A stretch of DNA of 62,670 bases, filler included, from Folioceros fuciformis (taxonomy: Eukaryota): assembly GCA_049999805.1 (NCBI GenBank). It is 4 parts of 4 records of this genome, joined end to end, with 100 filler letters (N's around TTAATTAATTAA, not from the genome) between each part and the next. Parts side by side here need not be neighbours in the genome. Positions count along the whole stretch, not along the records: positions 20,503 to 36,471 come from JBNGIO010006368.1; 3 more parts are not named here. One strand, written 5' to 3'. The position numbers and the translations under genes are program-made. This document shows, one piece after another, positions 13,065 to 57,991 of the stretch; within the stretch, counting starts at the first letter, position 1, and every line of letters begins with the position of its first letter. The notes below the pieces were generated by a model, which made no database searches, was not told the origin of the DNA, and worked only from the letters and a program-made list of their open reading frames with translations.

Positions 13065-13069
13065 GTCTT

Positions 13070-14596: not shown

Positions 14597-14619
14597 GGCA
14601 TAAATAAGAACAGTGTATC

Positions 14620-20502: not shown

Positions 20503-23500
20503 ATAACAACAAGTGGACTACTCCCTAGCCTACTCTCTGATTGGTTTTCATGGTATCAGAGCCATGTTACCACGCCTGAAGGGACTAATCAATCATGGCG
20601 AGGCGCGGAGCCCCCTGTAGGGACAAGCACAAATCAGAACCCTTCAATGACTACTCAAGTGGAGGACCTTCATTTGTGCTTCAGGCACCCTTTCTAGCAG
20701 ATGTTGTGCCAATCCCCACAGCGCCTAGCCGCCCGCGCCCTCAGCAGCATCATCCCCTTGCCCAAGGTCACCACATAGGATTTTACCCACAAATCCTTGC
20801 AAGGAATCGAAGCACCTTGGGGCGACCTGTAAAGAGACAGTGGGATTCAGACCATTGTTCCTGCAAAGGGCTCAGGCAAATCCTGGACAGATCTCAGTCA
20901 ATTCTCACTCGCGTGGAAGGACTGCTGTTCAGCCTGTTGTCATATCAAAGATCCTCCAGGATTTCATCCCGGCCTCCCGATCCTAAGCCAGCGTGCGCCA
21001 GGGCCCCCTGCACAGAAGTCCAGCAGAGCATAGACGACGTCGCCAATTTCCTATGCAATCTCAACATGCAGGCTTTTGGAAAGGGGAATCAACGCACCGA
21101 CTCACGATCGGATGCCTCCGACTGCTAAATTCTTCCGCTGCACGGGAGTAGGAGCAGCGGCAGGCCAAGGCGCACCTCAGATCTGAAAAGTCGTCTTGTG
21201 CTCCGCTCCCGCTGCAAGACTCTTTGAGTATTCACGCGGATTGGTCCACCTGTTCACTTGACTAAGGACTGGCGGTTGGAAGCACCTCTCCAAGATGCCG
21301 ATTCGCACTCTGCTGAGTCAATTGGTTACTTAGGGTTTGCTATTATTGCTATCCATTGAAGATAGGTAGATCACGCTAATAAAGGCGAGACCCTTTTTCC
21401 TAGCACGAGCGGAGCAAGAAGAAACGTGGATACAGCACGAGTAGGGGCTAGTACCCACTAGCACCTCCTCCAGCTTTACCCACACAACTCCCCCCCTCGA
21501 CACTATCCCCGCTTCAACTGGGTTAATTCCAGTCGTTCATGTTTACCACCGCATAGCTGAATGCCCTGATCAGTGGATTTCAGAACCTTACCCTACAGCC
21601 AAGCCCTCCCTGCGTAATGGCTGTATCTGTTAGTAACCCATCTTTTACCTCTGAACTCAAAGAGAGGGATAGGTTTAAGGGGCAAGGTTACACTGTTTGG
21701 CGAGTCAGGATGAAAGCCACCTTGTTGGCTAGAGGCGTTTCGGCCACTGTCGATGGTTCTTACCTCAAGCCTGACCCCAATTCAACACCAACCCCCACGG
21801 CGGACGAGGTCGCCAGATGGGACCAGTATAATGCCATCGCAGTTGCCCTGATTATTGGCGGACTGGATGCTGACCTAGTCCCAGATATCGAGTATCTCAC
21901 CTCCGCACACGACATTTGGAGTCAGCTGGAAAGAACTTACAAAGTACAGAATTTGATGACTCTATGTGCTGTGAGGCAAGAATTCTACTCACTCAGGATG
22001 AAGGAGGGGGAGAAAGTTATGTCCCACGTCAGCAAGTTTAGGCACCTGCGTGCACAACTTATGGCGATGACAGGAGACAAAATGTCGGAGGTGGACGCTA
22101 TCGCCCAGTTGCTGACCAGTCTGCCTGCCTCTTACCAAACCTTCGTCACAAGCCAGAATGGCCCAATCCGAGCTGCTCACACCGCTGCATCAGCCGGGCA
22201 ACTAGTGACAATCACCTTGGAAGAGGTGATTGGTGCTTTGTTCCAAGAAGAAAAGAGCCGTACCTTCTCTCTCCTCTGCTGTTCCTAAGAATAGAGGGGA
22301 CAAGGTGTTAGCAGCCAATTTTCGTAAAGGAAAATGGAAACCCAGAGGTACAGAAATGCAAGGCCAGAGAGGGGAGTCTTCCAACCCAGCCAAGAGACCT
22401 GGCAGCTGCAATTGGTGTGGCCTACCTGGCCATTGGGCAAGAGAATGCCGCAAAAGGAAGGCAGGTGAGCCCCAGAGACAACCAAAACCAGCTGCAAACA
22501 TTGCTGTGAAGCCAAAGTCAGGAGACACTAAAGCTCCTGTTAAGATACTTACTGTATGCCTCTCTAGCATCCGGAGTGATGACTGTTCCTGGTACCTGGA
22601 CTCTGGGGCTACGACACATATCTGCAAGAAGAGGGAGGCTCTTCAAGACCCTTGACCTAGAGAAGAAAGGAGGTCAGGTGTTTTTGGCAGATGAACAAAG
22701 CAAGACCAGCTTACAGATTGAAGGCAAGGGTACCTGTATCTTCAGGCTTCATGATGGCACAGATCTTGTGCTAGAGGACGTCATTTTTGTCCCGGGCTTG
22801 GCCAAGAACCTCATGTCATTGAGTCAGCTTCTACGTCTCAGGACATTTTACATGCATGCAGACTCCAAGCATTGCTGCTTTTACAGACAGTCCTCTCCCC
22901 ATTCGTGTGCTTTTGAAGGACTCCCAGAAAGCAACCTATATAGACTCAACATTACTTGCCTCCTACCTGAAGCACATAGTGAAATCACTCACTCAACCTC
23001 AGCCTCAACATTAAGTCAAGAACAGCAAGCACTCCTATGGCATGCCCGCTTGGGGCACATTAATAAGTCAAAGCTGATAAACATGTCAGTCATGGAGTGT
23101 CATCGAGAACCACTCCCTAAGTGTTTTAAATCATTACCTGTTTGTGAGTCTTGCATACTTGCTAAGCAGAAGGAATCCCCATTTCCTAACTCCCCTGTGC
23201 ACAGAGCCACAGAAGTCCTTGAGTTAATCCATGCGGACATATCGGGCAAAGTCCATGAACCCTCCCTCGGAGGCTCCTGCTATTTCCTAACACTCACTGA
23301 TGATTACAGCCGCTATACATGGACTTTTCCAATGCATGTGAAAAGTGACACCTACAGCTACTTCAAGGAGTGGCTCGTTGTAGCTCAGCGACAATCTGGA
23401 AAACTACTGAAGATACTCAGGACGGACAATGGCACAGAGTTTGTCAACTCACAGTTTGACGAACTACTTATGGAATCCGGCATCTTACGTCAACTTACCG

Positions 23501-26500
23501 TGCCCTACACACCACAGCAGAATGGTGTGTCAGAGCAGAAAAACCAGACATTATTAGCAATGACAAGGAGCATGCTACTGTGGGCAGGATTACCTCAGGG
23601 TTACTGGGCTGAGGCTATTGTAACCGCCACATACATATTAAACCGGGTGCTTACTAGTTCCGTTCCCAATAAGACTCCATTTGAGGTTTTTTGGAACAGA
23701 AAACCCAGCCTTTTACACCTCAGAGTCTTTGGTTCACGGGCCTATGCCCTTATACCCGCAGAAAAACGGCATAAGCTGGACAACCGTGCTGAGGACTTCA
23801 TTCTGGTTGGTTACAGTGAGCAGGCTAAAGCTTACAAGCTATACAACCCTGACACACACAATACGATTGTGGCCAGGAGTGTTACCTTCATCGAACCCAA
23901 TGCTCCCGTCTTGGCCGTCCCCACTTCTGACCATGATGTTCAGTCTCCGCCAGATGATTCTCCTGCCGTCTTTCCCTTGGATGACACTGAACCTGAATCC
24001 ATAGAACCGACCCCTGCTGTGTTAGTCCCACCACCAGTCGCTCCACAGCCACAGCCACCAGATCCAGACCTTCCCCCTGCAATCATTCAGCCAGACCAGG
24101 ATCCACCTGTTTTGGATGCAGAGGGGGATATAGGGCCGGATGCTGACCTTATACCTGATCCGGAGCCCCCAAACCAGGTTCCTCCCGCACCTGCTAATCC
24201 CGTGCCTGACTCCCCCAACCTCCGTCGGTCCACCCGTCATAGGCCTCCACCATCAGAGTGGTGCGAACCCCCTTATGCCTCCACAGATTTCCGTACCCAT
24301 ACAGCGTCAAGCCCTAGCAAACCATCTTTTCCAGAAGAACCTGTCACATTATTTCAGGCATTCAACGGCCCTGAAAGTGAGCAATGGAAGCTAGCTGTGG
24401 AGGATGAATATCAGTCTTTAATAAAAAACAATACCTGGGTTCTCGTTGATCTCCCATCAGGCAGGAAAGCCATCTCCTGCAAATGGACATTCAAATTGAA
24501 GCTTAATGCAAAAGGGGAGGTGGCTAGGTTCAAAGCGCGCCTGGTCGCTAGGGGCTTTACACAAGTGGAAGGTCTGGATTATCAGGAAACGTTCTCACCT
24601 GTGGTTCGCAGCCAATCTATACGTTTGCTTCTTGCTTATGCCACAGAGTTTGATTTAGATCTTCAGCAGATGGATGTCTGCACAGCCTTCTTATATGGTG
24701 CCCTCGACGAAGAACTTTATATGCTCCAGCCTGAGGGCTATGAGGATCCTACACATTCACACAAGGTTCTCAGATTACTTAAGTGCATATACGGGCTGAA
24801 GCAGAGTGGGAGAGTATGGTATCTCACCATGCATGAGTATCTCTTGAGTATTGGCTTTACCCAAAATACTGCAGACACCAACGTATATCGGTTGACGAAA
24901 GGACCCCTACTTGTATTGCTGGCCCTGTATGTGGACGACCTGATACTCGCCACAAACGATCAAGCCCTGTTAGCAGAGGTTAAGAAGGACCTACACAGCA
25001 GGTTTGACATCGGGGAGTTAAAGTTCTGCTTGGGAATTCAGCTCATACGTGTTCGTGAAGCAGGCCTTATGTATATTCACCAATACAAATACATTAACGA
25101 GATCTTAAGAAAGTTCAACTTAGATCAAGCTCGACCCGCTACTACACCATATGCTTCAGGCACCAAGCTCAATCGTCAGCAAAGCCCACAGACACCTGAA
25201 GAACTTAAGGATATGGAGGGCATACCTTTCAGGCACGCAGTCGGCAATTTACTTTTTGTCGCAAACTGGACCAGGCCGGACATTCAGTATTCTGTAAGCA
25301 CTGTATCCCAATTCCTCGAAAACCCTAGTAGGACACACTGGACGGCAGTGAAGAGAATTTTTCGTTATCTTAAAGGAACACTGCACTACGGGCTTATGTA
25401 CAGAAGGAGTGGTGAGCAACAGGTCACCTTATCCGGTTATTCCGACGTTGACTGGGCTTCAAACCCAGATTCAAGACGTAGCCTTTCTTCATACTGCTTC
25501 TTGCTTGCATCTGCCGCTGTTACATGGAGCAGCAAAAAGCAGGTGACAGTAGCGCTTAGTTCCACCGAGGCAGAATACAAATCACTAACAGAGGCGGCAA
25601 AGGAGGCGGAATGGGAACGAGGCTTCCTAGCATGTCTAGGGCATGAACAGCTCAACCCAACTCTTATCCTCTGCGACAACACTTCAGCCTTGGAACTGGT
25701 TTCGAAGCCTACCTTTCACGCCCAAACTAAGCATATAGAAATACACCACCACTACATACGTGATGTGGTTGCTCGCGGCGTGATTAAACTGGAATACACA
25801 AGCTCAGACACCAACACAGCTGATATCCTGACGAAAGGGTTACCCAAGCATGCACACTACTTACATATGCAGGGGCTGGGCCTCAGTGATTTTTCTGCCT
25901 ATGTCGACCCCTGACGCTCATCGCTGGTGACTGAACGAGATGCGGACCTACCCCGGCAGCACCTTCAGCTCACCAGGCGAGATCAGCCGTTTTTACCATC
26001 TCGGCAGCCTGCACATGTACAGGGCAGATGGTTAGAGTGGCCATGCGCAAAAGGGGACGAGTAGGTCGATAAAGACAGATCAAAGAGCGTAGACCACAGC
26101 GGCGCAGCAAGACCGCACAACGTTAGAGTAACTAATAAGGCACGCACCGGGCGGATGAAGCCTTAGCGCCCGATCCAATCGCCCGAGTTGCGGCGCCTCC
26201 CTCCTACGCCAACTAGCACCTTCAGACACACGGGCCATGCATGCTGTGTGAAAAAAAAAAAAAAAAAAAAGAGGACAGTGGTGCTGGGCTGTCTTGGCTG
26301 CAGACACGGGCTCTACGTCGACGGACGATAGCGCCTGATCTTCGTTCCATGCCGCACCGGACACCCACAACCCCGGATCACAAAGCCTCCAGCTTAGCGC
26401 ACATCGACCCGACCAGAAATGCAGCCATACCGATCCCGCGCGCGTCGTGTGGCCACGAGTGTTCTGTCCTTTTTTTTTTCCCCGTCGCCCGTCTTTAGTT

Positions 26501-26714
26501 TAAGAGGGGGTGTTCGCGTATATTCCCGCATACAGCCGTATATAGGCATATAAATAAACATAAATACGAAGCGACACATTAGTCATGAGGCCGTTGGGTA
26601 GGTGGTCGAAACGTGGGTATTAAAGATGTTTTTGTACATAAGTTTAATTAATTGTCTTATTGCTTGATAACAACGAGTGGACTACTCCCTAGCCTACTCT
26701 CTGATTGGTTTTCA
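20503..26714 (+). mobile_element. Copia element D: Ty1/Copia retrotransposon, apparently nested in Copia C
   Basis: Partial 5' LTR 20503-20550 next to a gap matches the end of the 3' LTR 26511-26714 (TG..CA). PBS at 20551, PPT AAGAGGGGG at about 26502. gag from 21617 and pol to 25914 with RTDNGTEF, LYVDD and ADILTK. Two frameshifts near 22270 and 22650. Confidence 0.93.
20595..21128 (+). CDS. Extra ORF upstream of gag in Copia D (177 aa, unknown function)
   Basis: ATG-initiated open frame starting about 30 bp after the PBS, with helical segments LRQILDRSQSILTRVEGLL and VQQSIDDVANFLCNL. No clear similarity to the A/B ORF. Confidence 0.5.
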   Translation: MARRGAPCRDKHKSEPFNDYSSGGPSFVLQAPFLADVVPIPTAPSRPRPQQHHPLAQGHHIGFYPQILARNRSTLGRPVKRQWDSDHCSCKGLRQILDRSQSILTRVEGLLFSLLSYQRSSRISSRPPDPKPACARAPCTEVQQSIDDVANFLCNLNMQAFGKGNQRTDSRSDASDC

Positions 26715-29700
26715 GGCCATCTCACAGCAAGCAACGAAGAGCAATATGCAAGCTGATGAGATTGCTAACCTGAAGGAGCAGTTGGCACTGCTCAAATCCC
26801 CTCAACCCTAGAGTGGGCATTACAACTCCAGCATCGTTCATGGTTGCAGTAGCGGATCAGACTTCAGATCGCCTGCAGGACAAGGACAGGCTTTCGCCTC
26901 ACAACTACGATGCATGGAGTTTTAGGGTACATTGTATCCTTGAAGATAAAGGTCTCATGGATATTGTAGAGGGCACTATTCCGAAAAGAATTACAGGAGA
27001 GGATTCAGGCAAGAAGGATACGCAAGGAAATGTCATCCCTTGGACAACGATAGAAGACGTTGCTTGGCATAAACTGGATAGGAAGGCCAAAACTATATTA
27101 GTTGCTTCTGTTTCCCAAGAGATGATCCCCCATATCAAGTTGACGAAGCTATCTGCAGAAATGTGGACGCTGCTATCAGAAACATATGAATCAAAAGACA
27201 TAATGTCAGAGGTAGCAGCAACGCAGCATTTCCAGTCACTGAAGATGAGGGAGAATGATTCAGTTGAGAGTCATCTAGCCAAGTTTCGTGCAGCAAGGGC
27301 AAAACTGGCTTCCTGTGGTGTTATCATTTCTGAATCAAGAGCAGCAGTGCAACTGTTAGCCTCATTGCCTCCTAGCTATGAACAGTGGAGTTCCAGCCAA
27401 CAGGCTGCCGCTGTTCAAGTACCTGCAACATCAACTACACCTGCCACTTCTAGCCTTACAGTTCAGAAGTTAGTCGGTGCCTTGCTACAGGCTGAAGCCA
27501 GTCGGAAAATAAGCAAGGGTGGATCCAGTTCTTCTCACAGACAGAGTGATACTGCACTCTTTACCGGTCGTGGCCGAGGACGAGGTGGATTCGGACGAGG
27601 TCGAGGACAAGCGTTCTCATCTGGTTCTGGCTCCACACTGTTTGCAGGGAAGAAACCAGGCGTCTGTAATTATTGCAATAAGCCTGGGCATTGGATCAAG
27701 GATTGCAGGAAACGAAAAACAGATGAAGGAGGCAGATCAAAACCAGGTGAAGCAAATGTAACAGGAGTTGCACGCTCGTCCACACCTGGCTTCTTGGTTA
27801 CATGTCTCACCTCTGTATCCAAGAATTCACATAGGTGGTTCCTGGATAGTGGAGCATCTAACCACATGTGTTCCCAACGAAAGTACTTTGCTACCTATCA
27901 GACATCACCATAGTGTCAAGGTCATGCAGTGGTACTTGGAGATAACTCTCAGCTTGCAATTAAGGGATCTAGGAGTATCACAGTTCATTTGCACAATGGA
28001 GACTTGCTGCAACTTGAGAATACTTTGCATGTACCAGCTTTGACTAAAAACTTGGTCAGTACTATGGTCTTATGCAGAGAAGGAAGGTACAGAGTTACCT
28101 TTGAAGGGACGGAGTGTGTTGTGTCACATCTATCCACTTCCATGGTGGTTGCTCGTGGTAAACCACTGTATGATTTGTACCTACTTGACTTCTTTTCAGT
28201 GACTCCTCTGCAACAGCCCACACAGCAAATGTTAGACCGTCACTTAGCAATGCATTTCGGTGGCATTGCCGCTTGGGCCATCCCAACTTACAAGCTATGC
28301 GGAGGCTACTTAAGGAGAATATGGTCACAGGGTTCAGTGAAACAGACTTACCGGCCTTGGAGCTGTGTGTGGCATGTGTCCATGGTAAGCAATTCAAATC
28401 TCACTTTGGCAGTGAGAGACCACGGAAAGCTTCAGATACCCTTGATTTGGTGCACACTGACATATGTGGACCAATGTCTACTCCCTCATGGGGAGGTGCA
28501 CGATACTTTGTAGTATTTGAAGATGATCGTACTCACTTCACTGTATATGATTTGTTGAAGCATAAGAGTCAAGTGTTTGACAGTTTCAAAAAATATCTTG
28601 CCTATGCTGAGAGACAGACAGGATACAAGCTGAAATGCATTCGTTCTGATAACGGCAAGGAGTACCTGTCACAAGCATTTCAGGAGTTTTGTCAGGAGCG
28701 TGGCATTACTCATCAGCTTACTATCCCATATCACTCCGATATGAATGGTCGGGCAGAGAGGAGACATCGAACAATACAGGATGCAGCCAGATCACTACTG
28801 TTCCAGGGGAGGTTGTCAATCAAATTCTGGGCAGAAGCTGTGCAGGTTGCAACTTACCTTCAAAACCGGATTGCTGTTTCTTCTCTCCCTGGTGGAACAC
28901 CATTTGAAGCTTGGACGGGAGCTAAGCCAGATGTTTCACATCTTTGTACCTTCGGCAGTATTGCGTATGCACATGTTCTTGACAAGCTAAGACGTAAGTT
29001 CGACTATAAATCGAAACGACATATCTTTATTGGGTACACTTCAGGCATTCATGGTTATAAATTGTTCGAACCTGAGTCACGTAGAGTGGTGTATGCCCGT
29101 ACTATCGTGTTTGATGAGAGAATGGTCTTACAAACTTCTGATCCTGGTTTGGAAGATGTCGCTGATGTAATAGATGCTGTAGAAGATCCTATACAACATC
29201 CCTCAGATGTGTCGGATGTTGCTGAATTTCCTGTGTCAGATCCATCTTATGTAGATGTCTTACCAGTTGTTGATGCAGAGGATGGCCCCGAGACCCCTGA
29301 TCCAGAGCCTTATGTTGATGATGGTCATGTCCCACAGCCACCTGGTCCCCTTCTCGCTCCCGATATTTCTGACACAGAGTCTGTTCCTCAACAACATGAT
29401 CTAGAGTCAGATCCTGAAGTCGAGGGTGTCGATCCTTCGTTTGAAGATGAACTTGGTCAGTATGAGGATGAGCCTATTATACCTGAGCCTGCTCCAGCAC
29501 CTGAAGTCCCCCTTCCTCGTCGTTCAGCTCAAGTACATCATCCTCCTGATGATTGGGTTGAACGTCCATATCGTAGTATTGATTGGCGATCCAGTCATGA
29601 TGACAGACCAGTTCCTCGTCCTCTTGGTTCTGGTCCTGGTGAGTTTGTAGTTGATGTCGTTCATGGAGTGAACCTTACGTCAACCCTGATCACGAACCAC

Positions 29701-30080
29701 AAACCTATCAAGAGGCTATCACATGTCCTGAATCCATGTTCTAGAAGGCCGCCATTCAATCTGAAAATGACTCTTTGATTGCCAACAATACTTGGGAGTT
29801 ATGCCCTCCGCCTCAGGGGAGAAAGATAGTTACCTCCAAGTGGGTCTTCAAGTTGAAGTATAAGGCTGATGGCACAATCTCCCGGTATAAGGCAAGACTT
29901 GTTGCTCGTGGATTTTCTCAAGTTCCAGGTTTGGACTATCATGAGACATTCTCTCCCGTGGTGAAATCACAGTCACTGTGTGTACTCTTCTCCATGTCAG
30001 CATTCTTTGGCCTGTTCATCCACTAGATGGACGTTAAAACTGCATTCTTGCATGGCAAACTGGAAGAAGAACTGCCTGGG
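26715..30080 (+). mobile_element. Copia element C: relative of A and B, 5' end lost at the D insertion or gap, truncated inside RT
   Basis: Tail of the upstream ORF (DEIANLKEQLALL, stop 26811), gag ATG 26840, CCHC knuckle, DSGAS and an integrase closely similar to B. RT start WVFKLK...KARLVARG breaks off after FLHGKLEE. Several stops and frameshifts. Confidence 0.9.
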
Positions 30081-30750
30081 GACTAGTTGCGCACTTGTCT
30101 GCTGGCTGCCTAGCCACCGATCCACCCAAGCCTGGCTCCCATGATCCCGCCATCAGCTGCTCCTGGCCTGTCTGGCCAGATCCGGTTAACCACCTGGATC
30201 CTCCTGCAGCCAATTGGCTAAGCTGCCGACCAAGATCCCCCACTCGCGCCAGCCCCTGTCTGGCTCCGGCCTGCGCAACCGCCTACCTACCAGCCGCCAG
30301 CCAGCCTGCTGGGCTGCTTGCTCCCGTTCAACCCTATTTCTAGACATAAGGAGGACTCATGTGGTCTGCATGCTTTGTCAAAAGGCTGATGAACAAGAGG
30401 CATTCAGCAACTTGCCTCTCGAGGCCCATAATTTCACCAAAACATCCCTGACCTTCTCACGTCGCCTTGCCCTAGGGTTCCACACTCCTCAATATCCCTG
30501 ACCCCAAAAGGAGCCCAAGCCCATTACCTTTTGACCACAATCACTACTTAGACCCTAACCATCCCACCTAGCCCAATCCCCTAATTTTTTCCCATAAACT
30601 TTAACCAAAAAAATAAAATAAAATAAATCTCTATCATTTTTCTAGGGAATCTATCTACCATGTGGACTCCACACATACATATAACGCTTGAACACAACAT
30701 CAATCATTCATCAGCTTGTATTACTTGTTAATGAAGATTAGGTTGCCAGC

Positions 30751-31990
30751 TCATGGCTTTTGTAACTTCACACAGTCTGGGCAAAACCAATCTTCTTATG
30801 GTACTTCTTCCAAGGATGGCTGTAGACAAAACAGGTGATACCCTTGATTGCAACAGTCGCACAAGAGCATGGCATCTTCTTCATCAATGCAACCACAAAT
30901 GCGGCATTCCAAGTCCTTGGGTGGTATCCAATTGCTAGGTCATAGCTTTGGATCTAGATCTGGCAAATGACAAGGAGCTAGGTTCTTCAAATGATCTTGC
31001 CACCTTCGTCCATTAGATCCCTCCAGCTCCACCACCTCAGTATCCTTGACAACAACCACCCGCAGAATTGTGCGCCCAACACTACTATCAAGTGTATCCG
31101 AAGGCACATTGAGCCAAGTATACGTAATAAGCAAGTTCAAATTAATGCACTTTGGGCTTCCAACTTCCTCCTTTTGTATGAGCATAGCGCAGTCTGTCCC
31201 TATGTTGTGCAATGGCCAACTTTTCCATTGCCACTGGCATTACATGCTAAAACAACATTGCTCGTCTTTGCAGCTCTCTCATGCAACCATCCACATCTTG
31301 CCATGATATTGGTCTTTCCATAGTAGCTTGCTGCACATTAGGCAATTGTGGATGTCTCCATAACAATAGAAACTATGGAGAAAAGTTGGCAAGCGTGGCT
31401 TGAGTGCTTACCTAATAGCCTAGCAACATGTATAGCACCACTTCATCCCAATCTTTCATGCTATTTTGCAAGCAATACTTCCATAGGGCACGCTTGACAT
31501 TTTGCACTCCCCTTTCAGCCAAATCATTTGCTTGCAGATGATCCTTGCTTGTGCAACAATGATCAATGAGCGCCTTCTCCATAAGCTGTTGAAATTCCCC
31601 TCTAAACTCTAATCCCTGATCCGTCACTACTTCAGCAGCACATGCACCAAACCTTGGCAACACCTGCAAAAATGCCATTTTTGCAGGTGTTGTCTTTCAT
31701 GAGAAGACAACAACTTCAATCCATTTGGAGAAGTACTCAATCATCAACATCATGTGACGATTTCCTCGCGACGTCCTTGGGAATTCCAGCAACAAGTCAA
31801 CTCCCCACTTGTAGAACAATCCTCTTATAGGTAGAGAATGAAGCACCACACCATTTGCCATGAATCTTGCCTTGATTTGATCACATGATTCGCACCTGGC
31901 AACAATCTCCTGCACTTGCTTGTACATGCCTGCCCAACAATATCTTGGCATCAACATGCTCAACGTGCGTTTGACACCAAAATGATTTGC
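30751..31990 (-). mobile_element. Degenerate Ty3/Gypsy integrase with C-terminal PHD finger
   Basis: Integrase motifs YCWAGMYKQV...CESC, WGVDL, IEYFSKWIE, VTDQGLEF, AERGVQ and LAPCHLP. In the same frame follows CRICGCIDEEDAMLLCDCCNQGYHLFCLQPSLEEVP*EDWFCPDC (C4HC3). Confidence 0.85.
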
Positions 31991-33179
31991 TCTTGTTAGG
32001 CTTCATTGGGCTTGAAGGGATTTGGAAGTAGCTAACTCTAGTCGCAATCTGTTCGAGTAAGACCACTGGCCCGTATTCTTACCTGGGTGTCTGGCCGAAG
32101 CTCCTTGGAGTAGAAGTGCAGCGTCAGATGGTCAATAATGTACAAAAAGTGGGGAGCAAACGAAGGGGAGTATGCTTGGTGGATACGAGATGGAGTGGCG
32201 GTTGTAGCGGAGGGAGACAGGCAGAATGGTGAGCGAAGCTTGTTTCAAGCGACGAGGTGAAATTGATGGACTGGTGGGAATCATGCGACTTAGCTCGGGT
32301 GGGTACTGTGCTCCGACAAATTTACCTGGTGGAGTCATTGCAGTTGAAGGTTGCCAGGCTCGCTCCCTGTGGAGTCAAATGTTGTGTCCGGGGACACCGC
32401 GAGGCCCCCTTTATGTCGTTGTAGCCATGGGATTCGTTCCTGAGGGAATGATTTGTGCCAAGTAACACAAGTTTCTTCTTATACTGACTCTTACATAGGT
32501 CAGGCCTTATCTACCACCAGTTCTACTACTGACCACGCCCTACCACTACCCCTCAGTTAGCCTAACTATTGCGGGTCCCACTCTACGACTCAGGTCTCTA
32601 CACGATGGCCTCGGTCACGGTCTCCGCACCTACTAGTAACTTCCACGATCATGGTGGGGCCCACCCAAAACCCTAACTATATTTCCCCGGTGCATGCGCC
32701 GCCGCGGGTTTCCACCACGGGGTTCCGTCCAAGGGTTTTCAGACTCAGAGATCTGGTCTTATGGGATGCTCCACGCACATGCAACTGCTAATCCTTGGGG
32801 GACAAGACCCTGCAGATCAGCCATACTTTCCACACACACACACACACATGCAACACTCTCCATAAATGCAAAACACACCAGAAGCTTTGATGTACACTTA
32901 TTCCTCACAGGCCCGTCCTCAAGGGTCTTCGATCTTCTAGTTGCACCCACAAATCTCTAGCAAATCCTTCACAATCCCTCTCAAGGTTCAACGACCTCCA
33001 ATAGTCACTCACAAACACTTCGAAATTTCCCAGAAATTCTCCAGGAATCACATCCAACTTCTGCACTCTCTCTCAATCATCCGGCCACTTCTCAGCAGTT
33101 TTCTTCAGTTTTCCAGCAACCTTAGCAATCTTCCAGGGTCCTCCTTACTCTTTCAGCTCACTCTTCCGCAGCCAACAGC

Positions 33180-33690
33180 TCAGGGAATAAGGGAAGGAGA
33201 AACTCTCCCTCCACTCCGCGCAACGAGCGGATTCGTCCCCCTCTCCTCAGCTTATGGCCAATCAGTCTCCTCTCACACACTCACTCCTTCACCCTTCTCC
33301 TCCTTACTCACTCACTCTTCACTCAACCCTTCTCGCTCACTTCAACTCCTTATCTTCTCACATACGCTCTTCGACTCCTCGTCGTCTCACACACGCTCTT
33401 CTCCACGAGATTCAGAACGCAACCGAAGGGTCAAGGAATAAGGGAAGGAGAAGCTCCCCTTCCACTCCGTGCAGCTGGCGGATTCGTTCCCCTCTCCTTA
33501 GTTACGGACCACAGTCAATCGTTTAGGAAATAAAGGAAAGAGAAGTTCTTCTTCCACTCCACGCAGCTGGCAGATTCGTTCCTCTCACTTTCTACTGTAG
33601 AACACAACTAGCAATTCGAGGAATAAGAAAAGGTGACCTTCCACTCAGCAGGGAATTTGCTGATTCGTCCCCCTCACCATTCGCTGTGCA
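33180..33690. repeat. About four degenerate copies of a 60-90 bp unit (GGAATAAGGGAAGGAGAA...TCCACTCC...GATTCGT)
   Basis: The motif recurs near 33184, 33435, 33526 and 33620. Confidence 0.7.
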
Positions 33691-34569
33691 GCAAAGCTCT
33701 CGATCCCTCTTAGGAGCGTCATGCACACGATGCCCACCTAGACATCTCCAATCCAGCCACGAACAACACAGGAACCTTGGTCGGAAAGAGTCTCCAACAT
33801 TTGCTTATTAGTGAGGTACCAACAGGCCTCTTTGTAAACACGCTGGGCAGGATCGTAGCTGCCATTAAGTTCAGTCTCAAGCAGTCAAGCGCTCTTAATT
33901 ATGAGCGGCATCAAGTCCAAGAAAGAATCTTCACCAAATCTTAACTAAATGCTACTCTAAGATGCAATGAATTCTGGCCTATCCTATCACCGCGCTCGCC
34001 TCCTATCCGGCCTTTATGTACCCCTCCCCCGACCGCCAAACCCCCGGGCCCTCCTTCCTCTCCACTGGTCAGGCAAATCCTCCCATAAAACCTCTATCTT
34101 GCTCTCGCCACCGTCTGACTTCTCTTGTTGAGGCGTGGGTGGGGTCTGCCGAGGGGTCCTTCCCCCCACCTTCTAGCCACCTGTTGCTGAGGACCATCAT
34201 AGGTTTTTGCTCCACCCATGCCTGCACTTCTTCCTCCGTGAGTTCCTCCAAGACTGCCTCGAATAACAAGGAGGCAGTCCCCACACCCGGAAGTAGTGAG
34301 AGAAGCATCCCCCACAAGTCTTCAGTTATAGGCAGTAAGCCCTTGTCCCTCCTATTTCCACACACACATGGACAGTCAGGTTAAGTACACAGTCCCCATT
34401 CACATAAAGGCCAGGAACATAAGTTTTCTCATCCAGATGCTGTAATGCAATCTAGCCTCCTACTATAGATGAGGTGCTTATCCCCTCCTCCCGTGGGCTA
34501 CCCCGAACTGCCTGTCTTTTGCTCTCCAAAGGTACTGGGGAATCCTCCGCTCTTCTGGCGGTGTGTCAG

Positions 34570-34680
34570 AAGAAGCAGAAGCGGGGTGCTTGCCACACTT
34601 TTGGAAGGCTGGAACTATATAGCCATCGATCTGGAGCAGCGGCATACTATCTTCATCGAGCAAAGAATAACTGGGCCCGA
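34570..34680 (+). pseudogene. Possible SAM-dependent N4/N6 DNA methyltransferase fragment (motif I region)
   Basis: RSRSGVLATLLEGWNYIAIDLEQRHTIFIEQRI resembles the GSGS-x-LAA-x-LEGRN-x-I-x-ID C-terminal block of beta-class methyltransferases. Short and decayed. Confidence 0.4.
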
Positions 34681-36570
34681 GGTGTTTCCATTGGACCAAG
34701 AGGAGTTGACGACCAAGCCGCATGCTAGGGGCCACTCAATATTCTTTGCATGTGAGGTTGCAAGCGGAAGGTCGGTTAGACCAAGAGCTTAGATGCTGCA
34801 AATGGTGCATGAGAACACTACACCTCTGGATCTCCTTGAACTTAGCTAATCTTAAGGGCACGCAAAGAAGAAGAGCAAGGGGAAAGGAAAGGAGATAATG
34901 AACACTAAAGGTCAAGGACCGGGAAAGGACTGGAAGAACAGCCTGGGGATCAGCCTTGGGAGCTATATCATTTTGAGACATTCTCGAACAGGGCTTTGCT
35001 GCGAGGACACACTGACAAGCAAGAAGTGCCAAATATGGCGATGCACAACGAGGAGAGAGGAGATGATATTATTGTCCCCATGGCAAAACGACTAGAACCT
35101 CCACGGGTTCAAGGTTAGGAATTGTCAGTCGGTAGAATGGAAACTTGCTCAGAGTGAAGGCATGTACTTGAGTGCGACTTTGAAACTGCTCTACACGTCC
35201 CTAAGCGCGTATTTTGTAAAACCCTAAAGGACATTATGTGTTTGCCATGACCAGACCCCATGAAAACATTTGTTTCAAATACGGGGAAGGCTTGTGGTCG
35301 ACCATGACTAACACTATATGTGCGATATGGCATATTTTTGGGTTGTAAAGAGATGACCTCAACAACAACCCTATACCCTAAAACCCGCGGCATTCAAGGG
35401 GCTAGTACGCTTTCCGCATATGACCCTCTTCAAGTTGTTCCTTTTCATTCTCCTTGTCCTAATTCTCTTCTTTCAATAAAATATAAATTAAATATTAATG
35501 TTTGCACAAGTTCCACATTAATACTATCCTTTCATATTTCAATTCTTTTGTGAACGATATACTTCAAAATATAGAGCACTTTAAGATTATCTGAATGGAA
35601 AACAGAGAAGTCTTACCTTATTATGACTTGATATATAGTTGTTCTTACAAAAGTAAGAATAGAGAAGACGTGATGAAGTTCAAGCTAAAAAGTATTTTGT
35701 ATTCCAATGGATCAAAAGCTAAGCATTTGTTTAAATACATCAATACACATATTATATTTTATATGCAATGCTCATATATATCTAGATAATTATTTTAGGA
35801 TTTGATTGATTATAAATCTATATAAAATAATAGTATATATATATAAATATGTAAGATTAATATCAAATAAAAGGATATGTTTAAATGAGTCCTAGAAAAT
35901 GTATGTCGAGTGTATGAAAGTTGAGAGTTTTTTTTTTAAGGTTTTTTTGGGGTTTTGACCACTTTAAATAGTGTTTGGCTTTGATAACCCACAACCACCT
36001 ACCTGGTTGCGAGTACTGTCACTCACCCTACCCCGAACCTTACCTCTCTACATTGGCAGGAGTGCGGGCTTGCAACTCCATCTGTGGGGGTGGGGTTTGG
36101 TGCGGGCAGCAGGGAAGCTAACTCCGACTGCCTGCCGTGGAACCCTACCTAGATTCGTAGGACATGCGTGAGAGAGCAGCATTAAGAAGGCAGAGTTCTT
36201 GTGGGGGTGAATCCGTCCTTCCAGTCCACGTGTGTTTTCAACTGAGTAGGTCTGCAGTGCGGTGCTCCTGGCACTGGCGGAGGAAATTTGTTCGTGACCA
36301 GCTCCCTAGACAGAATGTTGTTGCTCTTTCATTTCCTTCGAATGGCCAGTTTGTTTCTCACGCTTTGCGCCTTGTTTTCTGATCCTCAGGAATACTTGAC
36401 ACGCCTTCAAGCTGGACGCTTGTTTCTATGCCCAGCTATCTCGATGATCCTTGCTTACCTTCCTTATGGTGNNNNNNNNNNNNNNNNNNNNNNNNNNNNN
36501 NNNNNNNNNNNNNNNTTAATTAATTAANNNNNNNNNNNNNNNNNNNNNNNNNNNNNNNNNNNNNNNNNNN

Positions 36571-37365
36571 NAATATCATATGCCGCTGAGAAGTTTCCTA
36601 CAAAGGTGCATAACATGATTTTCCTTGCTGGAATAATGCCAAAAGATGGACAAAGCTACTTCGACTCATTTTCGGCACCAGTAAGATATTCATGTTATTC
36701 TTGTCATTTTTAGAACAAAAAATAGATTGATGTAGATAATTTTGTTCTATATTGCTGATCTACTGGAAATATGAATAGCTACTTGGAGGTCAAGCAAGTA
36801 TGAAAGGTTTTGTTGACTTATGAAATCCTAATGACATTTTACTCTTGAATATGGTAGCTTTTCCCAAGAGTTTCTGGAGCTGAGCACTTGATTGTGAACA
36901 ATGATGCTTAATTGTGAACAATGATGCTACTGGAAGCCCTGTATTAGTGTCGGTAAATGTTGATAAAATTGGAGAATTCTTTTACAACAAATGTCCTCCG
37001 GAGGTACATCACCATGGTCACATTACACTAGTAGCCAAATTATGCACAATTTTTTATGTGATGCAAACTAATCTTTCTTGTATTTTTTAATACAGCATAT
37101 TATTTTAGGACAATCTCTTCTTGTCCTAACTCCCTACAAGCCAGCAAACGAGAAGTTAACGTTAACGGCAACAAATTATGGAAGCATTCCGAGATATTAT
37201 ATTCGTACTTCAGATGATTTGGGAATTAACTCTTCAGATCAAGACACCATTATTGCTGCTAATCCACCGACCGAAACAAGCTCTTTAAATAATAGTGACC
37301 ATGCAGCATATTTTTCAAATCCATCTGGTTTAGCATCTCTCATCAACGGATTTGCTACTAAGTAG
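36571..37365 (+). pseudogene. Methylesterase-like alpha/beta hydrolase, 3' part (duplicate of 56973-57766)
   Basis: No differences seen by eye from the right-hand copy, including the 20-bp duplication that creates a TAA. Begins at a gap edge. Confidence 0.8.
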
Positions 37366-37534
37366 AGTGTGTCATAACCATTTACCTATTGCCTTACCAT
37401 GGTAGTCTAAGATCATGTGATATGTGTAAGGATCTTTTTTTTTTCAATATTACACTACTAATTATTTTAGGCATAATGTAATGACAACCAAGAGATGTTA
37501 GTTCTCCACAACAGCTATTCTCTAGCAATTCGAT

Positions 37535-37733
37535 TCAGCCTATGGCCCAGACTTGTCTCTATTGTAGGTCCACCAATTTTACTTTAGCCTACGGCCCAAA
37601 CTTGTCTCTATTGTAGGTCCACCAATTTCACTTTAGCCTACGGCTCAAACTCATCTCCATTGTAGGTCCACCAATTTCACTTTAGCCTACGGCTCAAACT
37701 CGTCTCCATTGTAGGTCCACCAATTTCACTTTG
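37535..37733. repeat. Tandem minisatellite, about 50 bp x 4
   Basis: Unit approximately TTTAGCCTACGGCTCAAACTCGTCTCCATTGTAGGTCCACCAATTTCAC, repeated head to tail with no spacers. Confidence 0.9.
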
Positions 37734-38859
37734 AACGTACATATCGTAATAGTTTTCAGTCTCATCTATCTTGGTTGTCGCATGTGGTGGAAAAACCTTG
37801 GGCCTTTCTTCCAAGGTTTTAACCTCTAGCATCCACAATTATCACACTTTTGTTGAGACATTGTGTTTCATCCTAGAAAGAAGTAGTGGAGCTTCTCGAT
37901 GTGATGGATGAAGGCTCAACCTTTCTCGTCTCACAACTCTTAAGCAACTCCTGGCCTGTTCTTGTACCTAAGTGCCTGCCATACCTCGAACAGATAGTTT
38001 GGTCAGCTTTCTAGCCAAGCCACAAGCAATTCGCTAACTAACATTGAGTTAGATGCCTCCTATGGTCAGTCTTTACACCAACAACCTAGAACAATTTGCC
38101 GAACCTTAAGAACACCTACTAAGGATTATGTACCTACAACTTCCTAACTCTACGGACAGACTTCCCACCTTCCACAAAATTGATGACGGATTTGAGGGCT
38201 TCCATCCAACTTCGATCAGACATAGGACAAATTGCTTGTCCAATAATCTTCTACACAGTCACACTCTCTTTAGCAAACTCACTCACTCTTATCACTACAA
38301 TGACAACCAAATCACAAATCTACAACCATCTCTCACTCACCTCCTAAATCTACCACTAACTCTTCAACCTTGCACCAACAACATTACAAGGCTACTCTCT
38401 ATGCAATCCTACTAACGCCTTCTCCCATCACATGCTTCCTAAGTACACTAATCACTAAGAAAGAAAGAATGGAAGGAGACACACTCACTCCGTGACACCG
38501 GTTCCCACAACCTTACCTTTGAGGAGTGCATCAACTCGAGTATTGATAGGATGTTGTTCGGTGCTTGGCATTTCTAGAGGCTAAGCCCGTAGTTCATGTA
38601 ATTTTTAGCACAACTCTCGCCTGCCATAATCTGACTTTCCTTGTGTGAGGAACAAAAAAAAGGAGAGTTTACAATGGAATGGTGTTAGGTAACGTCTTAT
38701 GTAACCTTGATTACATTGTTCTTAGAAACTAACACATCCTTGGAAGTTCTTTAATATAAAAGATAGTTTGAAGCCGTGTATGTAGATACAGGTCTAGTAA
38801 TTAGTAAATGTTTACAAACGCAAAGTTAAATCTACAATCCCAAAGATAACCTATTAAGT

Positions 38860-39126
38860 TGGTGTGGCAAACATGTACTCTGGGTAGCAATTGTTTACAC
38901 GAATGTCTGCTATACCCTACCCAGGACACAATTCATCCAATAGGTTGATCATCAAATCTATAAGACAAGTTTTACATTGTTGCGGAGACTCCATTATTGA
39001 CTTTGGTGGATAACAATCTACTGCACCAGAAAATACATCTCCTTGCATCAAATATTTCAAATCGTATGTGTATGGGAGTTCATTAGGAAAGTAGATAAAT
39101 GCATTGTCAATCATATCACTAACCAT
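38860..39126 (-). pseudogene. Possible Gnk2/DUF26-like cysteine-rich remnant
   Basis: GAVDC...QQCKTCL...LCPG*GIADIRVNNCY resembles the C-terminal half of DUF26. Cys spacing is atypical and there is an in-frame TAG. Confidence 0.4.
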
Positions 39127-41248
39127 ACTGTGTAAAAATATATTTTTTCATCCATACTTTTAGTAATTTTTAGACCACACTGCAATCTACTTATTTTAAA
39201 TGCAAATACGAGTAGAGATTTTGAAGAAATTTTTTCACCGTTTGGGTGATAGTTCATGACTATACAAAATATTATCCAAGGTAATTTTATAAATTTTAAA
39301 TAATTATATGTTAAAAACCCTTATAAAATAATAAAATGTAACTAAATAATTATAATTTTCAAATAGCTGATTATTATACTAGTGTAATTTTCAAGAAAAA
39401 AAAGTATAAACCATATCTAACTATCATGATGAAATTTAATATTTTTCTAAATAAATAAATAAATAATATGAGTTTATTTTTTTATTTTTAGAATAAGTTA
39501 TAGATAAAATCCAGTATAGATTAGAATATACCTTATAACAGATCATCTACATCATTTTTTGTTTTTCTTTTATTACTTTGTCGAGCATCGTAGATATTAT
39601 TTTATGTATTTTTATATTCATTATTTTCAAAGCAATTTACGATTTATAGTATAGAGTGCTTCACTTTTGCATCTATTGCATATTTCACTTGAGAAGAGTG
39701 CTCATCAAACTTTATACACAATGAGCATCTTAATTCTTTCATCACCACGTTATAAAATAATATAAAAATTTGGGGAGGCATCAATTTTGGTTCTTCACTT
39801 CTGTCATCCCATTGTTCTACGAGACAAAGAGTGTGTTAGTTTCTATATTTTTGGAACTTTTCAAGGTTTGATAAATTAAAATTTACAACTCCAAGACCGA
39901 GAAATAAGCTAAGAGACAACCAACCAATAAGTAAAGTCACCAAGTTTTTTGAAATTGAGCATCATAGTGAACAACCTTAAGTCTATCCTAAAACCCACTT
40001 GAGATCACACAACAAATAACCTATGGTTGCTACGCCCCTTTACAGTTGGCTAAGGTTTCGGAAGCATAACGAAGATAATCAAACTCGCACCTAGCTTTGT
40101 TGGGTCTTGCTTCCAAGCTTCAGCTTCAAGTAAAAGACTGGAAGCTGATAGAAAGGCTAGTCTTCTCCACATCTACAACCAGATGCGTGGCCAGCTTGCG
40201 CAGGTCAAGAAAGTGCCTAGTCCCTGCGACAGAACTCTGACCACAACGTGGCTAGACTCGTCCTCACGCCCGGAGGGTTCATGTCATCCAGGGAAAGGAT
40301 CACCAGACTGGGCCCTATCCAGGTGCGTATAGGAATATTCCATACCAAATATGACGAATGAGGGCTTGAAGTTTTCTCCCACCGGAAGGGCTAGGAGAGG
40401 AAAGCGTCTGGAGAGGACGAAGATCGTTGTCGGAAGCGCAAACTCTGCAGACACGGCAGCAGGACACTTGTCGCTTCCTCCGCGCTACTGCAATCTTCCG
40501 TCGGGATCCGGCGCTGTCCTCAATTTGCAGATCCTGTGTTTGCACCATGCCAATTATGTACGCAGATCAGTAAACCTGAAGTTTTGCCATAACTACAGTT
40601 CCGCAGTCCTTGGACGAAGCTCCAACGGAAGATAGACCAACGGCCGCTTTCAATACAGATGCAGCGGCTCCAGAGAAGTTTTGTGTCACGCAGTGGGAAG
40701 CGGAGTGCACCTGCTCAACGGTAGGCCTGCTGTCGGCTATCCAGAGTCGGCGCAAAGCCGTGCTTGCTAAAGTGCGACCAAAGTGCGTTCCAGATCTGCC
40801 GTTCTACGACGGGTGCAGGCCGAGGATGGACAACATGCTGTGATCAATGTATAACCGCAACCTGCATCTGAACACAGATTCAGCAAGCTACGGCTGACTG
40901 CTTCCTGAAAACAGAAACATGCTATCTGAACCTACAAAGGACGACCAAGGCTGAGAGAATTGCTTCTCTCGTTGGAACGTCCGTCAGCCACGCACCTGCT
41001 TACTGCGGTCTCGATCCCGTCGCGTCTGCACCAATTTCAGTGGAGGGTCGCTGGCACTGGTGCAATTCAGGCTATCCATACTGAAAGGCAGGTCTGCAAG
41101 GTTTTCTTCAACGTGTTACAAACGAAGAGAATCGGTCCAAATAAAGAGGGCACAGTTCAGGCTCACCTACAAAGACTCGAGCCAATTCTGAAGCATGCTC
41201 CACAGCCTCCAAATCGACGTAGCCTGACCGTTTTCGACATACAAGCTC

Positions 41249-46996: not shown

Positions 46997-47360
46997 CCCT
47001 AAACCGTAAACCCTTATGTAAGTTCCATGATGAAAATTCAATCTCTTCATTCTATAAACCTAGAAGTGAGATTAAAATTAAACTAGTTTAGGATTTAGGG
47101 TTTAGTTGTTTAAACCCTAAACCCTAAACCCTTATGTAAGTTCGATGATAAAAATCTCTTCTTTGTATAAACCTAGAAGTGAGATTAAAATTTAATTAGT
47201 TTAGGATTTAGGGTTTAGTTGTTTAAACCCTAAACCCTGAAACGTTTAAACCCTAAACCCTGAAACGTTTAAACTCTAAACCCTGAAGCGTTTATTTACT
47301 AATTCCTGAAACGTTTAAACCATAAACCCTGAAACGTAAGCCCTAAAGCCTTAAACCCTG
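46997..47360. repeat. Interstitial telomere-like repeats (CCCTAAA/TTTAGGG) within a duplicated unit of about 120 bp
   Basis: TTTAGGATTTAGGGTTTAGTTGTTTAAACCCTAAACCCT occurs at about 47087 and 47199, followed by AAACCCTGAAACGTTT variants. Confidence 0.85.
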
Positions 47361-57766: not shown

Positions 57767-57991
57767 AGTGTGTCATAACCATTTACCTATTGCCTTACCA
57801 TGGTAGTCTAAGATCATGTGATATGTGTAAGGATCTTTTTTTTTTCAATATTACACTACTAATTATTTTAGGCATAATGTAATGACAACCANNNNNNNNN
57901 NNNNNNNNNNNNNNNNNNNNNNNNNNNNNNNNNNNTTAATTAATTAANNNNNNNNNNNNNNNNNNNNNNNNNNNNNNNNNNNNNNNNNNNN

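What the first reader, a model, noticed from the sequence alone, without database searches (positions are those of the whole stretch)
30751..31000. Gypsy integrase fused to a PHD finger where chromoviruses carry a chromodomain
Seen, and missed by the ORF track: reading the minus frame through two premature stops gives LAPCHLPDLDPKL*PSNWIPPKDLECRICGCIDEEDAMLLCDCCNQGYHLFCLQPSLEEVP*EDWFCPDCVKLQKP. This is a complete C4HC3 PHD finger with the typical LLCD, YH-x-x-CL and W-F-C-P-x-C motifs. Established: PHD fingers read histone H3 tails, and PHD-bearing LTR elements are described in Chlamydomonas (REM1), whereas land-plant Gypsy targeting domains are usually chromodomains. Inference: this is a land-plant Gypsy lineage that targets integration through an H3 reader.
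Basis: partly seen in the sequence, partly recalled or inferred. Interest (0 to 1): 0.75.

Follow-up and report, generated by a model that had tools for sequence, protein, structure and literature searches.

The report
Methylase-carrying retrotransposon with histone-reader integrase
This is a dead fragment of a jumping-gene family in a probable hornwort whose intact copies carry a histone-reading PHD finger and their own DNA methyltransferase, and which seems to insert by an unusual route: it is cut at a site inside its terminal repeat instead of at its ends.

Summary
The PHD finger is real and belongs to the integrase. The window holds only a decayed 1.3-kb integrase-PHD fragment. Intact relatives in the same genome (probably a hornwort) encode one ORF: Gag-protease-DNMT3-like cytosine methyltransferase-RT-RNase H-integrase-PHD. 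The family is not a chromovirus with a swapped reader. It forms its own RT and integrase clade with Klebsormidium, liverwort and chlorophyte elements, the kind described as KnitGypsy-Dnmt3. The PHD lacks the methyl-lysine cage tryptophan and resembles readers of unmethylated H3K4; targeting is inferred, not shown.

The less expected result is the end structure. Copies read A-internal-B-A-B, with TG...CA ends and 4-bp target duplications. The integrase attachment site is a palindrome (CAYRACA-NN-TGTCRTG) inside the LTR. A polypurine tract precedes B, and the primer site pairs with the element's own leader (self-priming). The A|B joint is ragged and sometimes keeps primer-site bases, as joined cDNA ends do. 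Best model: a 2-LTR circle is cut at the internal palindrome and integrated in permuted form. One prediction fails: the mirror-image product was seen in 0 of 11 copies. Verdict: new variant of a known kind.

The parts
30772..30906 (-). C4HC3 PHD finger at the integrase C-terminus, with one internal stop (30796-30798)
   Evidence: PF00628 E 1e-9, residues 65-109 of the X-read frame
30907..31101 (-). Integrase C-terminal region and linker before the PHD, without GPY/F motif; stop at 30940-30942
   Evidence: tblastn of intact relative L021, frame shared with the PHD; motif comparison on relatives
31115..31987 (-). Integrase zinc finger (H2C2) and DDE core, 5 stops, frameshifted against the PHD part
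   Evidence: PF17921 E 2.9e-11; 51.5% identity to L021 integrase; D, D and E visible in the translation
30670..31984 (-). Whole surviving fragment of the element; truncated on both sides, ending about 80 bp after the stop, before the polypurine tract and repeat B
   Evidence: 82-93% nucleotide identity to subfamily copies only over this span; the copies go on aligning with each other beyond it
26774..30077 (+). Neighbouring Copia element, broken off inside its RT about 600 bp from the fragment (context, not part of the family)
   Evidence: Pfam gag, rve, SH3, RVT_2
32368..34310 (.). Unrelated dispersed repeat standing where RT and RNase H would be
   Evidence: 68-84% matches to other loci, several ending at 32368; no Pfam match in six frames

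Best explanation
The window holds a dead integrase-PHD fragment of an old green-lineage Ty3/Gypsy-type family (Gag-PR-DNMT3-RT-RH-INT-PHD; kin of KnitGypsy-Dnmt3). Proposed cycle: (1) the transcript starts inside repeat A, and its leader pairs with the primer site just behind A and primes minus-strand synthesis (pairing shown, use inferred). (2) The plus strand starts at the G-rich tract before repeat B, so the real LTR is B+A and reverse transcription gives [BA]-internal-[BA], whose ends lack TG/CA (inferred from anatomy). (3) The two ends are joined A|B (ragged joints shown). (4) Integrase cuts the palindrome CA-NN-TG between B and A with a 2-nt stagger and inserts the permuted DNA, A-internal-B-A-B, with a 4-bp duplication (ends and duplications shown, cut inferred). 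(5) The PHD tethers the integration complex to nucleosomes with unmethylated H3K4, away from active promoters, and the DNMT3 domain methylates the cDNA or the new copy (both inferred). My odds: family identity 0.95, internal-site integration of joined ends 0.7, H3K4me0 tethering 0.55.
For: Single 2386-aa ORF with PR, DNA_methylase, RT, RH, H2C2, rve and PHD. One contig of a public run spans 1539-9444 of that locus with 18 differences (may be the assembly's own source). At least 148 PHD-region and 126 DNMT matches in the genome; the window's subfamily has PR, DNMT, RT and RH. DNMT: 29 of 29 PDB sequence hits are DNMT3A/B/C; model pLDDT 96.5, best fold DNMT3A, Z 28.2, rmsd 2.6 A over 265 residues; catalytic Cys kept in 57 of 60 aligned rows, Glu in 59, the two Arg in 58 and 59. 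Family clade SH-aLRT 99 (RT-RH) and 98 (INT). Split repeats, TG...CA ends and 4-bp duplications in full copies C6246 and C6131 and solo units C5473 and C3150. In the window's subfamily 8 of 12 solo units match within 1 mismatch, P about 2e-8. The palindrome with a 2-bp spacer recurs in subfamilies whose repeats are otherwise unlike. The primer site pairs 16-21 nt with the leader in 7 of 11 copies, 0 of 200 shuffles reach the best score, one compensatory change. Of 21 A|B joints 8 are precise and 4 keep 8 or more primer-site bases, one of them inside a B-A-B end. PHD: no Trp at the cage position in 95 of 95 public and 12 of 12 local fingers; best PDB hits include KDM5-family, UHRF1, BAZ2 and CHD4 fingers, and KDM5A/B PHD1, PHF21A, AIRE and CHD4 prefer H3K4me0 (Jain 2020). 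Foamy-virus integrase cleaves a palindromic LTR-LTR junction (PMC1180852 abstract).
Against: An unbiased cut of a 2-LTR circle should give the mirror form A-B-A-internal-B half the time; 0 of 11 5' ends show it. In the young subfamily the A|B joint type mostly follows sub-lineage, which fits inheritance as well as fresh joining. Three of the 4 long primer-site joints are solo units and could be later deletions by microhomology. Four of 11 copies pair poorly at the primer site. Motif IV reads EC, not PC, in the two local subfamilies aligned (E 27, P 26 of 60 rows), and the K. nitens enzyme gave no methylation in yeast, which its authors call inconclusive. No binding, activity or insertion-site data exist; 8 of 21 flanks hit TE proteins, with no null. 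The trees use only local outgroups labelled by their domains.
Confidence: 0.68

Rival explanations
1. Same family, but the circle is made DIRS/Ngaro-style by templated strand transfers that use the B1/B2 and A1/A2 redundancy of the RNA, so the A|B joint is inherited; integrase only replaces the tyrosine recombinase at the B|A junction.
For: The repeat layout is that of DIRS (de Mendoza 2018 legend). It would explain why only A-internal-B-A-B appears (0 of 11 mirror forms) and why joint type follows sub-lineage.
Against: A self-primer behind A and a polypurine tract before B are standard LTR signals. Primer-site bases at the A|B joint, one case within a full B-A-B end, point to joined cDNA ends. 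A1 and A2/solo alleles are interchangeable, 0 differences between C5050 and C5473.
Confidence: 0.18
2. The PHD does not choose the insertion site. It stands in for the missing ADD domain of the element's DNMT3 or acts after integration, licensing methylation of the new copy on H3K4-unmethylated chromatin.
For: PHD and DNMT3 travel together: 37 of 49 long DNMT-bearing proteins also show a PHD. Animal DNMT3 carries an ADD domain; that ADD reads H3K4me0 is recalled. In chlorophytes the DNMT sits directly before the integrase (40 of 49).
Against: In the streptophyte form RT and RNase H separate DNMT from INT-PHD, so protease cleavage would probably part them (inference). The C-terminal position matches targeting chromodomains. 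Gypsy-7a_cRei, which has a PHD, inserts between genes 2.6 times more often than chance.
Confidence: 0.25
3. A chromovirus lineage that swapped its chromodomain for a PHD in land plants.
For: Same position after the integrase; self-priming as in Tcn1/Tf1 chromoviruses.
Against: RT-RH and INT trees separate it from the genome's chromodomain/SH3_Tf2 clade. No GPY/F motif. The PHD is shared with chlorophytes and Klebsormidium, so it is older than land plants.
Confidence: 0.05
4. A Ginger/GingerRoot-type DNA transposon, or a host PHD gene fragment lying next to an integrase by chance.
For: The window fragment itself has no RT.
Against: Subfamily copies carry RT, RH, DNMT and PR, and INT runs into the PHD in one frame in C5878 and C2064. 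Duplications are 4 bp, not the 6 bp of GingerRoot.
Confidence: 0.01

Closest known systems
KnitGypsy-Dnmt3 of Klebsormidium nitens (de Mendoza et al. 2018, PMC5890265; passages and supplement search seen, figures not visible)
   Same: DNMT3-like domain inside the Pol ORF of a Gypsy-type element; DIRS-like repeat layout; purifying selection; integrase and RH group with K. nitens proteins.
   Different: Here in a land plant. The text never mentions a PHD (0 hits in main text and held supplements; Fig. 4c may show one). In the passages read I saw no self-primer, internal attachment palindrome, target duplication or integration route.
Gypsy-7a_cRei and REM1 of Chlamydomonas reinhardtii (Craig et al. 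2023, PMC9940879, passages; REM1 paper not held, recalled)
   Same: Gypsy element with a PHD finger, proposed to limit harmful insertions.
   Different: No methyltransferase or split repeats are named in those passages. REM1's PHD is recalled as a separate antisense ORF. Whether either belongs to this clade was not tested.
Chromoviruses, Tcn1/Tf1-Sushi group (Neumann et al. 2019, PMC6317226, passages)
   Same: Chromatin reader at the integrase C-terminus; self-priming.
   Different: PHD instead of chromodomain, no GPY/F, separate clade, split LTR, added DNMT3.
DIRS/Ngaro elements with split direct repeats (layout; the rest recalled)
   Same: A1-ORFs-B1-A2-B2 layout; integration at the B|A junction of a circle.
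   Different: DDE integrase, TG...CA ends and 4-bp target duplications instead of a tyrosine recombinase.
Foamy-virus integrase cleavage of 2-LTR circle junctions (Delelis et al. 2005, PMC1180852, abstract)
   Same: Integrase cuts a palindromic junction in a circle to give processed ends.
   Different: There the palindrome forms where the LTR ends meet. Here it is a fixed site inside the LTR and the joined ends are not cut.

Membership tests
Ty3/Gypsy LTR retrotransposons | Pol order PR-RT-RH-INT with H2C2/DDE integrase | tested here: met
   L021 ORF; window subfamily
Ty3/Gypsy LTR retrotransposons | TG...CA ends, short target duplication, polypurine tract | tested here: met
Ty3/Gypsy LTR retrotransposons | Two complete LTRs flanking the internal region | tested here: not met
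   A-internal-B-A-B; so an atypical member
Ty3/Gypsy LTR retrotransposons | Placement in an RT tree with curated references (REXdb, GyDB) | not testable with these tools
   only local outgroups were available
Chromoviruses | Chromodomain after the integrase | tested here: not met
   no Chromo match in L021, L023, L024 or the Calypogeia and Klebsormidium proteins scanned
Chromoviruses | RT-RH and INT group with chromodomain-bearing elements | tested here: not met
   separate clades, SH-aLRT 98-100; the one local chromodomain element has RH and INT only
Chromoviruses (Tcn1/Tf1) | Self-complementary primer site | tested here: met
   16-21 nt in 7 of 11 copies
Gypsy-Dnmt3 (KnitGypsy-Dnmt3 kind) | Unpermuted DNMT3-like domain inside Pol | tested here: met
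Gypsy-Dnmt3 (KnitGypsy-Dnmt3 kind) | DIRS-like repeat layout | tested here: met
Gypsy-Dnmt3 (KnitGypsy-Dnmt3 kind) | Clade with the published K. nitens elements | tested here: inconclusive
   groups with K. nitens INT and RH proteins, but none of these short models was shown to be the published element or to carry the DNMT
Gypsy-Dnmt3 (KnitGypsy-Dnmt3 kind) | Purifying selection on the DNMT | tested here: met
   dN 0.22-0.36 with saturated dS in 4 comparisons; dN/dS 0.26-0.36 in 3; above 1 in 2 near-identical pairs with few changes
Gypsy-Dnmt3 (KnitGypsy-Dnmt3 kind) | Cytosine methyltransferase activity | not testable with these tools
   catalytic residues kept; no assay
DIRS/Ngaro | Tyrosine recombinase, no target duplication | tested here: not met
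   rve integrase and 4-bp duplications
Ginger/GingerRoot | Integrase-like transposase without RT; GingerRoot 6-bp duplication | tested here: not met
   RT present in the family; 4-bp duplications
PHD fingers reading unmethylated H3K4 | No cage Trp two residues before the His; acidic residue before the first Cys (rule recalled) | tested here: met
   Trp in 0 of 95 public and 0 of 12 local fingers; Asp at -3 in 49 of 95 and 12 of 12
PHD fingers reading unmethylated H3K4 | Measured binding to H3K4me0 peptides | not testable with these tools
   no assay

The most novel reading that the evidence does not exclude
An ancient, green-lineage-wide clade of Gypsy-type elements with its own integration route. 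The attachment site has moved inside the LTR, so only a circularly permuted 2-LTR DNA is viable. The element's DNMT3 methylates the CG pair kept in the palindrome (CACGACA/TGTCGTG) and so decides which of the two sites integrase cuts, which would explain the missing mirror form. The PHD sends the complex to H3K4-unmethylated chromatin. That would be a writer, a reader and an integrase working as one self-targeting, self-marking unit in land plants.
Probability: 0.15. Interest if true: 0.9.

Novelty: new variant of a known kind. Interest (0 to 1): 0.65.

Why it matters
Retrotransposons that carry cytosine methyltransferases were described from algae, and one review states they are absent from land plants such as tracheophytes. 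This family has over a hundred copies in a probable hornwort, some nearly identical and intact, and close integrase-PHD relatives in a liverwort. TE-borne DNMT3 copies could therefore shape, or confuse the annotation of, bryophyte methylomes. The end structure gives a concrete and testable answer to why a Gypsy element has DIRS-like repeats: integration at an internal palindrome of joined cDNA. LTR finders that expect two full LTRs will miss such elements. The PHD adds a candidate second way, beside chromodomains, for plant retrotransposons to avoid active promoters.

Tried and rejected
Ginger/GingerRoot: rejected once RT-bearing copies were found. RT-less autonomous form: C6056 reads PR-DNMT-INT-PHD in frame, but C6046, 99.4% identical over 1616 bp, has RT-RH, so it is a deletion copy or misassembly. 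Selaginella as host: considered, then disfavoured by the LCIB gene and chalcone-synthase hits. No rbcL in the assembly. First translation in the wrong frame. Single-sequence fold was useless, pLDDT 36. The careful host-gene tree did not finish; the quick tree was used. ESM Atlas gave DNA_methylase clusters without taxa. No RNA holder listed for the element, which says nothing about expression. Cluster look-ups named no further species beyond Calypogeia and Klebsormidium. Insertion-site preference: flanks were described but no null was available. A PHD-H3 complex was not predicted, because it would pass by likeness and cannot tell methylation states apart. No earlier scan notes for this genome, by sequence, or for the repeat mechanism.

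Full report
Observation. The minus frame at 30754-31098 encodes the C4HC3 finger as described, with two internal stops. Read with X it matches PF00628 at E 1e-9 over the whole profile. An integrase with an H2C2 finger (E 2.9e-11) and D, D, E residues lies upstream, in another frame and with 5 stops. The homologous block spans only 30670-31984. Six-frame scans of 32000-35000 and 36500-41200 found no RT or Gag, and the intact polyprotein matches the window nowhere else. So the window holds a truncated, dead fragment between a broken Copia element and an unrelated repeat.

The fusion is genuine. The genome gave 148 matches among 150 scored candidates. In the window's subfamily the integrase core runs into the PHD in one frame in C5878 and C2064. 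The two stops occur in 2 of 10 and 2 of 9 subfamily copies and in 0 of 15 and 0 of 14 copies of other subfamilies; 6 of the 8 sense codons at site 1 are CpG codons, a deamination hotspot. Between subfamilies PHD dN is 0.16-0.29 in 7 comparisons while dS is saturated; near-identical pairs give noisy values, some above 1.

What the family is. Locus L021 has one 2386-aa ORF with protease, DNA_methylase, RT, RNase H, H2C2, rve and PHD. One contig of run X1 spans positions 1539-9444 with 18 differences, and runs X2/X3 (one sample, another study) cover 30 of 30 bins; X1 may be the assembly's source. The methylase region has 126 matches in the genome, including the window's subfamily. All 29 PDB sequence hits are DNMT3A/B/C. 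A model from a 60-row alignment (pLDDT 96.5) matches DNMT3A best (Foldseek E 2e-17; Z 28.2 against 24.8 for HhaI). Catalytic Cys, Glu and the RxR pair are kept in 57-59 of 60 rows; the residue before the Cys is Glu in 27 and Pro in 26. This matches KnitGypsy-Dnmt3, described as Gypsy domains with DIRS-like repeats; its enzyme was inactive in yeast, inconclusively.

Range and trees. Forty-nine long public proteins share the DNMT region; the 7 with species names are chlorophytes (Haematococcus, Chlamydomonas eustigma, Monoraphidium). The DNMT lies just before the integrase in 40 of 49, after the protease in 8, alone in 1, and the DNMT tree nearly separates the two layouts, with weak support. The INT-PHD region hits the liverwort Calypogeia fissa at up to 72-77% and K. 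nitens at 43-54%. RT-RH (42 rows) and INT (44 rows) trees give the family its own clade (SH-aLRT 99 and 98), apart from the genome's chromodomain/SH3_Tf2 clade and another Gypsy clade. These are quick trees with local outgroups only, using a chosen subset of the hits. GPY/F is present in the SH3_Tf2 elements and absent in the two family members compared.

Host. Seven EPF matches, an intron-split LCIB gene and a DYW-type PPR gene point to a hornwort: Li et al. 2020 found LCIB only in hornworts among land plants and no EPF orthologue in Marchantia. A window gene falls outside mosses, liverworts and seed plants on a long branch. This is probable, not proven.

The PHD class. The best PDB matches are Lid and KDM5-family fingers, UHRF1, WSTF, CHD4 and BAZ2B, with ORC1b and ATXR5 lower down. 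Jain et al. 2020 report H3K4me0 preference for KDM5A/B PHD1, PHF21A, AIRE and CHD4. The cage Trp of H3K4me3 readers (position recalled) is absent in 95 of 95 public fingers that fit the pattern (169 proteins scanned) and in 12 of 12 local ones (20 loci scanned); Asp at -3 is in 49 of 95 and 12 of 12. In Anthoceros H3K4me3 marks genes and most TE chromatin carries H3K9me1/H3K27me1, so such a reader would steer away from promoters. This is inference. Eight of 21 flanks hit TE proteins and one lies in a satellite, with no null.

End structure. Copy C6246 reads A1(470)-internal-B1(111)-A2-B2, 96-97% identical pairs. It starts TGTCGTG, ends CACGACA and has a 4-bp duplication. C6131, a subfamily with unrelated repeats, shows the same with its own 4-bp duplication. 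Solo A-B units C5473 and C3150 have perfect 4-bp duplications. In the window's subfamily 8 of 12 solo units match within one mismatch (chance 2e-8). The B1|A2 junction is CAYRACA-NN-TGTCRTG, a perfect 16-bp palindrome in C6012, always with a 2-bp spacer where intact. A G-rich tract precedes B1. The bases right after A1 pair for 16-21 nt with a stretch about 215 nt inside A in 7 of 11 copies; 0 of 200 shuffles reach the best score; one pair changes on both sides between sub-lineages; the 4 other copies are decayed or truncated. I did not compare the site with tRNAs.

How it most likely works. With the primer site after A and the purine tract before B, ordinary LTR reverse transcription gives [BA]-internal-[BA], whose ends are not TG/CA. 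Joining these ends creates A|B. Cutting after CA on each strand of the internal palindrome gives two ends with the geometry of processed retroviral ends, and inserting them yields A-internal-B-A-B with a duplication. The A|B joints behave like joined ends. Of 21 joints in 20 of 25 loci, 8 are precise, 4 keep 8 or more primer-site bases, 3 have A/AC/ACA inserts, 1 an extra G, and 5 differ otherwise. One long case, C4592, lies inside a PHD-B1-A2-B2 end and cannot be a simple internal deletion. A1 and A2/solo alleles are interchangeable, as LTR regeneration predicts. Copies ending at B1 (C5615, C2388, C2911; two show 4-bp matches to 5' flanks on other contigs) fit cutting of a one-LTR form, but B1-B2 recombination would give the same. 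Foamy-virus integrase cutting a palindromic junction is a precedent.

What does not fit. The mirror product A-B-A-internal-B is expected half the time and was seen in 0 of 11 readable 5' ends. Among 12 joints of the young subfamily the type mostly follows sub-lineage. Either integrase prefers the site nearer the joint, or the circle is made by a templated, DIRS-like route. The conserved CG in the palindrome arms suggests, speculatively, control by the element's own methylase.

Literature. Passages read: PMC5890265 (plus supplement search; only the review file had hits, figures not visible), PMC6338049, PMC6317226, PMC6839031, PMC9940879, PMC8557442, PMC6673714, PMC10952607, PMC11982613, PMC6979384, PMC8075897, PMC12344493, bioRxiv 10.1101/2021.11.30.470311 and 10.64898/2026.05.21.726589. 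Abstract only: PMC1180852. REM1: not held, recalled. PHD fingers in retrotransposons are well known. Gypsy-DNMT3 is cited for 'streptophytes' without naming land plants in the passages seen. Ten searches showed no paper describing this family in bryophytes or the internal attachment site; most hits were seen only as listings. Subscription papers, Repbase reports, Craig's thesis and preprint supplements were out of reach and may cover part of this. Two unchecked scan notes report the same domain set in moss-like genomes; they are leads, not support.

Verdict. Observation confirmed; interpretation partly supported. New variant of a known kind. Interest 0.65, carried by the land-plant DNMT3 cargo and the testable integration route more than by the PHD alone.

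Noticed in passing
window 2400-4091 (-): Intronless 3-beta-hydroxysteroid dehydrogenase/reticulon ORF, 48-53% identical to all land-plant homologues, on a long branch.
   Followed up: partly
window 41249-43846 (-): PPR-E-DYW RNA-editing factor whose last residues are DQH instead of DYW.
   Followed up: no
window 48194-52964 (+): Tandem pair of dynamin-family genes about 3.7 kb apart, 76-80% identical.
   Followed up: no
window 11500-30077 and 57944-61880: Cluster of at least five Copia elements, three with long open Pol frames.
   Followed up: no
window 47040-47360 and 37529-37724: Interstitial telomere-like TTTAGGG repeats, and a 49-bp tandem repeat.
   Followed up: no
window 36572-36871 and 56973-57272: Identical 300-bp or longer blocks near both ends of one contig; a very young repeat or an assembly overlap.
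   Followed up: no
L023 (G000 C6056) 1-3282; L024 (C6226): In-frame PR-DNMT-INT-PHD without RT-RH; a sister copy has RT. C6226 has a 1648-bp identical terminal duplication, probably an assembly artefact.
   Followed up: partly
L021 8050-9366 versus P0173/P0179: Integrase-PHD is 72-77% identical to liverwort Calypogeia proteins, closer than to other subfamilies of the same genome (50-57%) and than a host gene (51%): old parallel lineages or horizontal transfer.
   Followed up: partly
P0004-P0052: The DNMT sits between RNase H and integrase in chlorophyte elements but between protease and RT in this genome: one relocation or two captures.
   Followed up: partly
P0050 (Monoraphidium): A Tudor-like domain (PF21743, below cut-off) follows the PHD, a possible second chromatin reader.
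   Followed up: no
L129 (G000 C1919); L093-L094: Intron-split LCIB gene, and chalcone-synthase-like genes with two introns in the N-terminal domain.
   Followed up: partly
L035 1500-1900 and L036 1510-1630: Copy C6246 is inserted in a short-unit satellite array.
   Followed up: no
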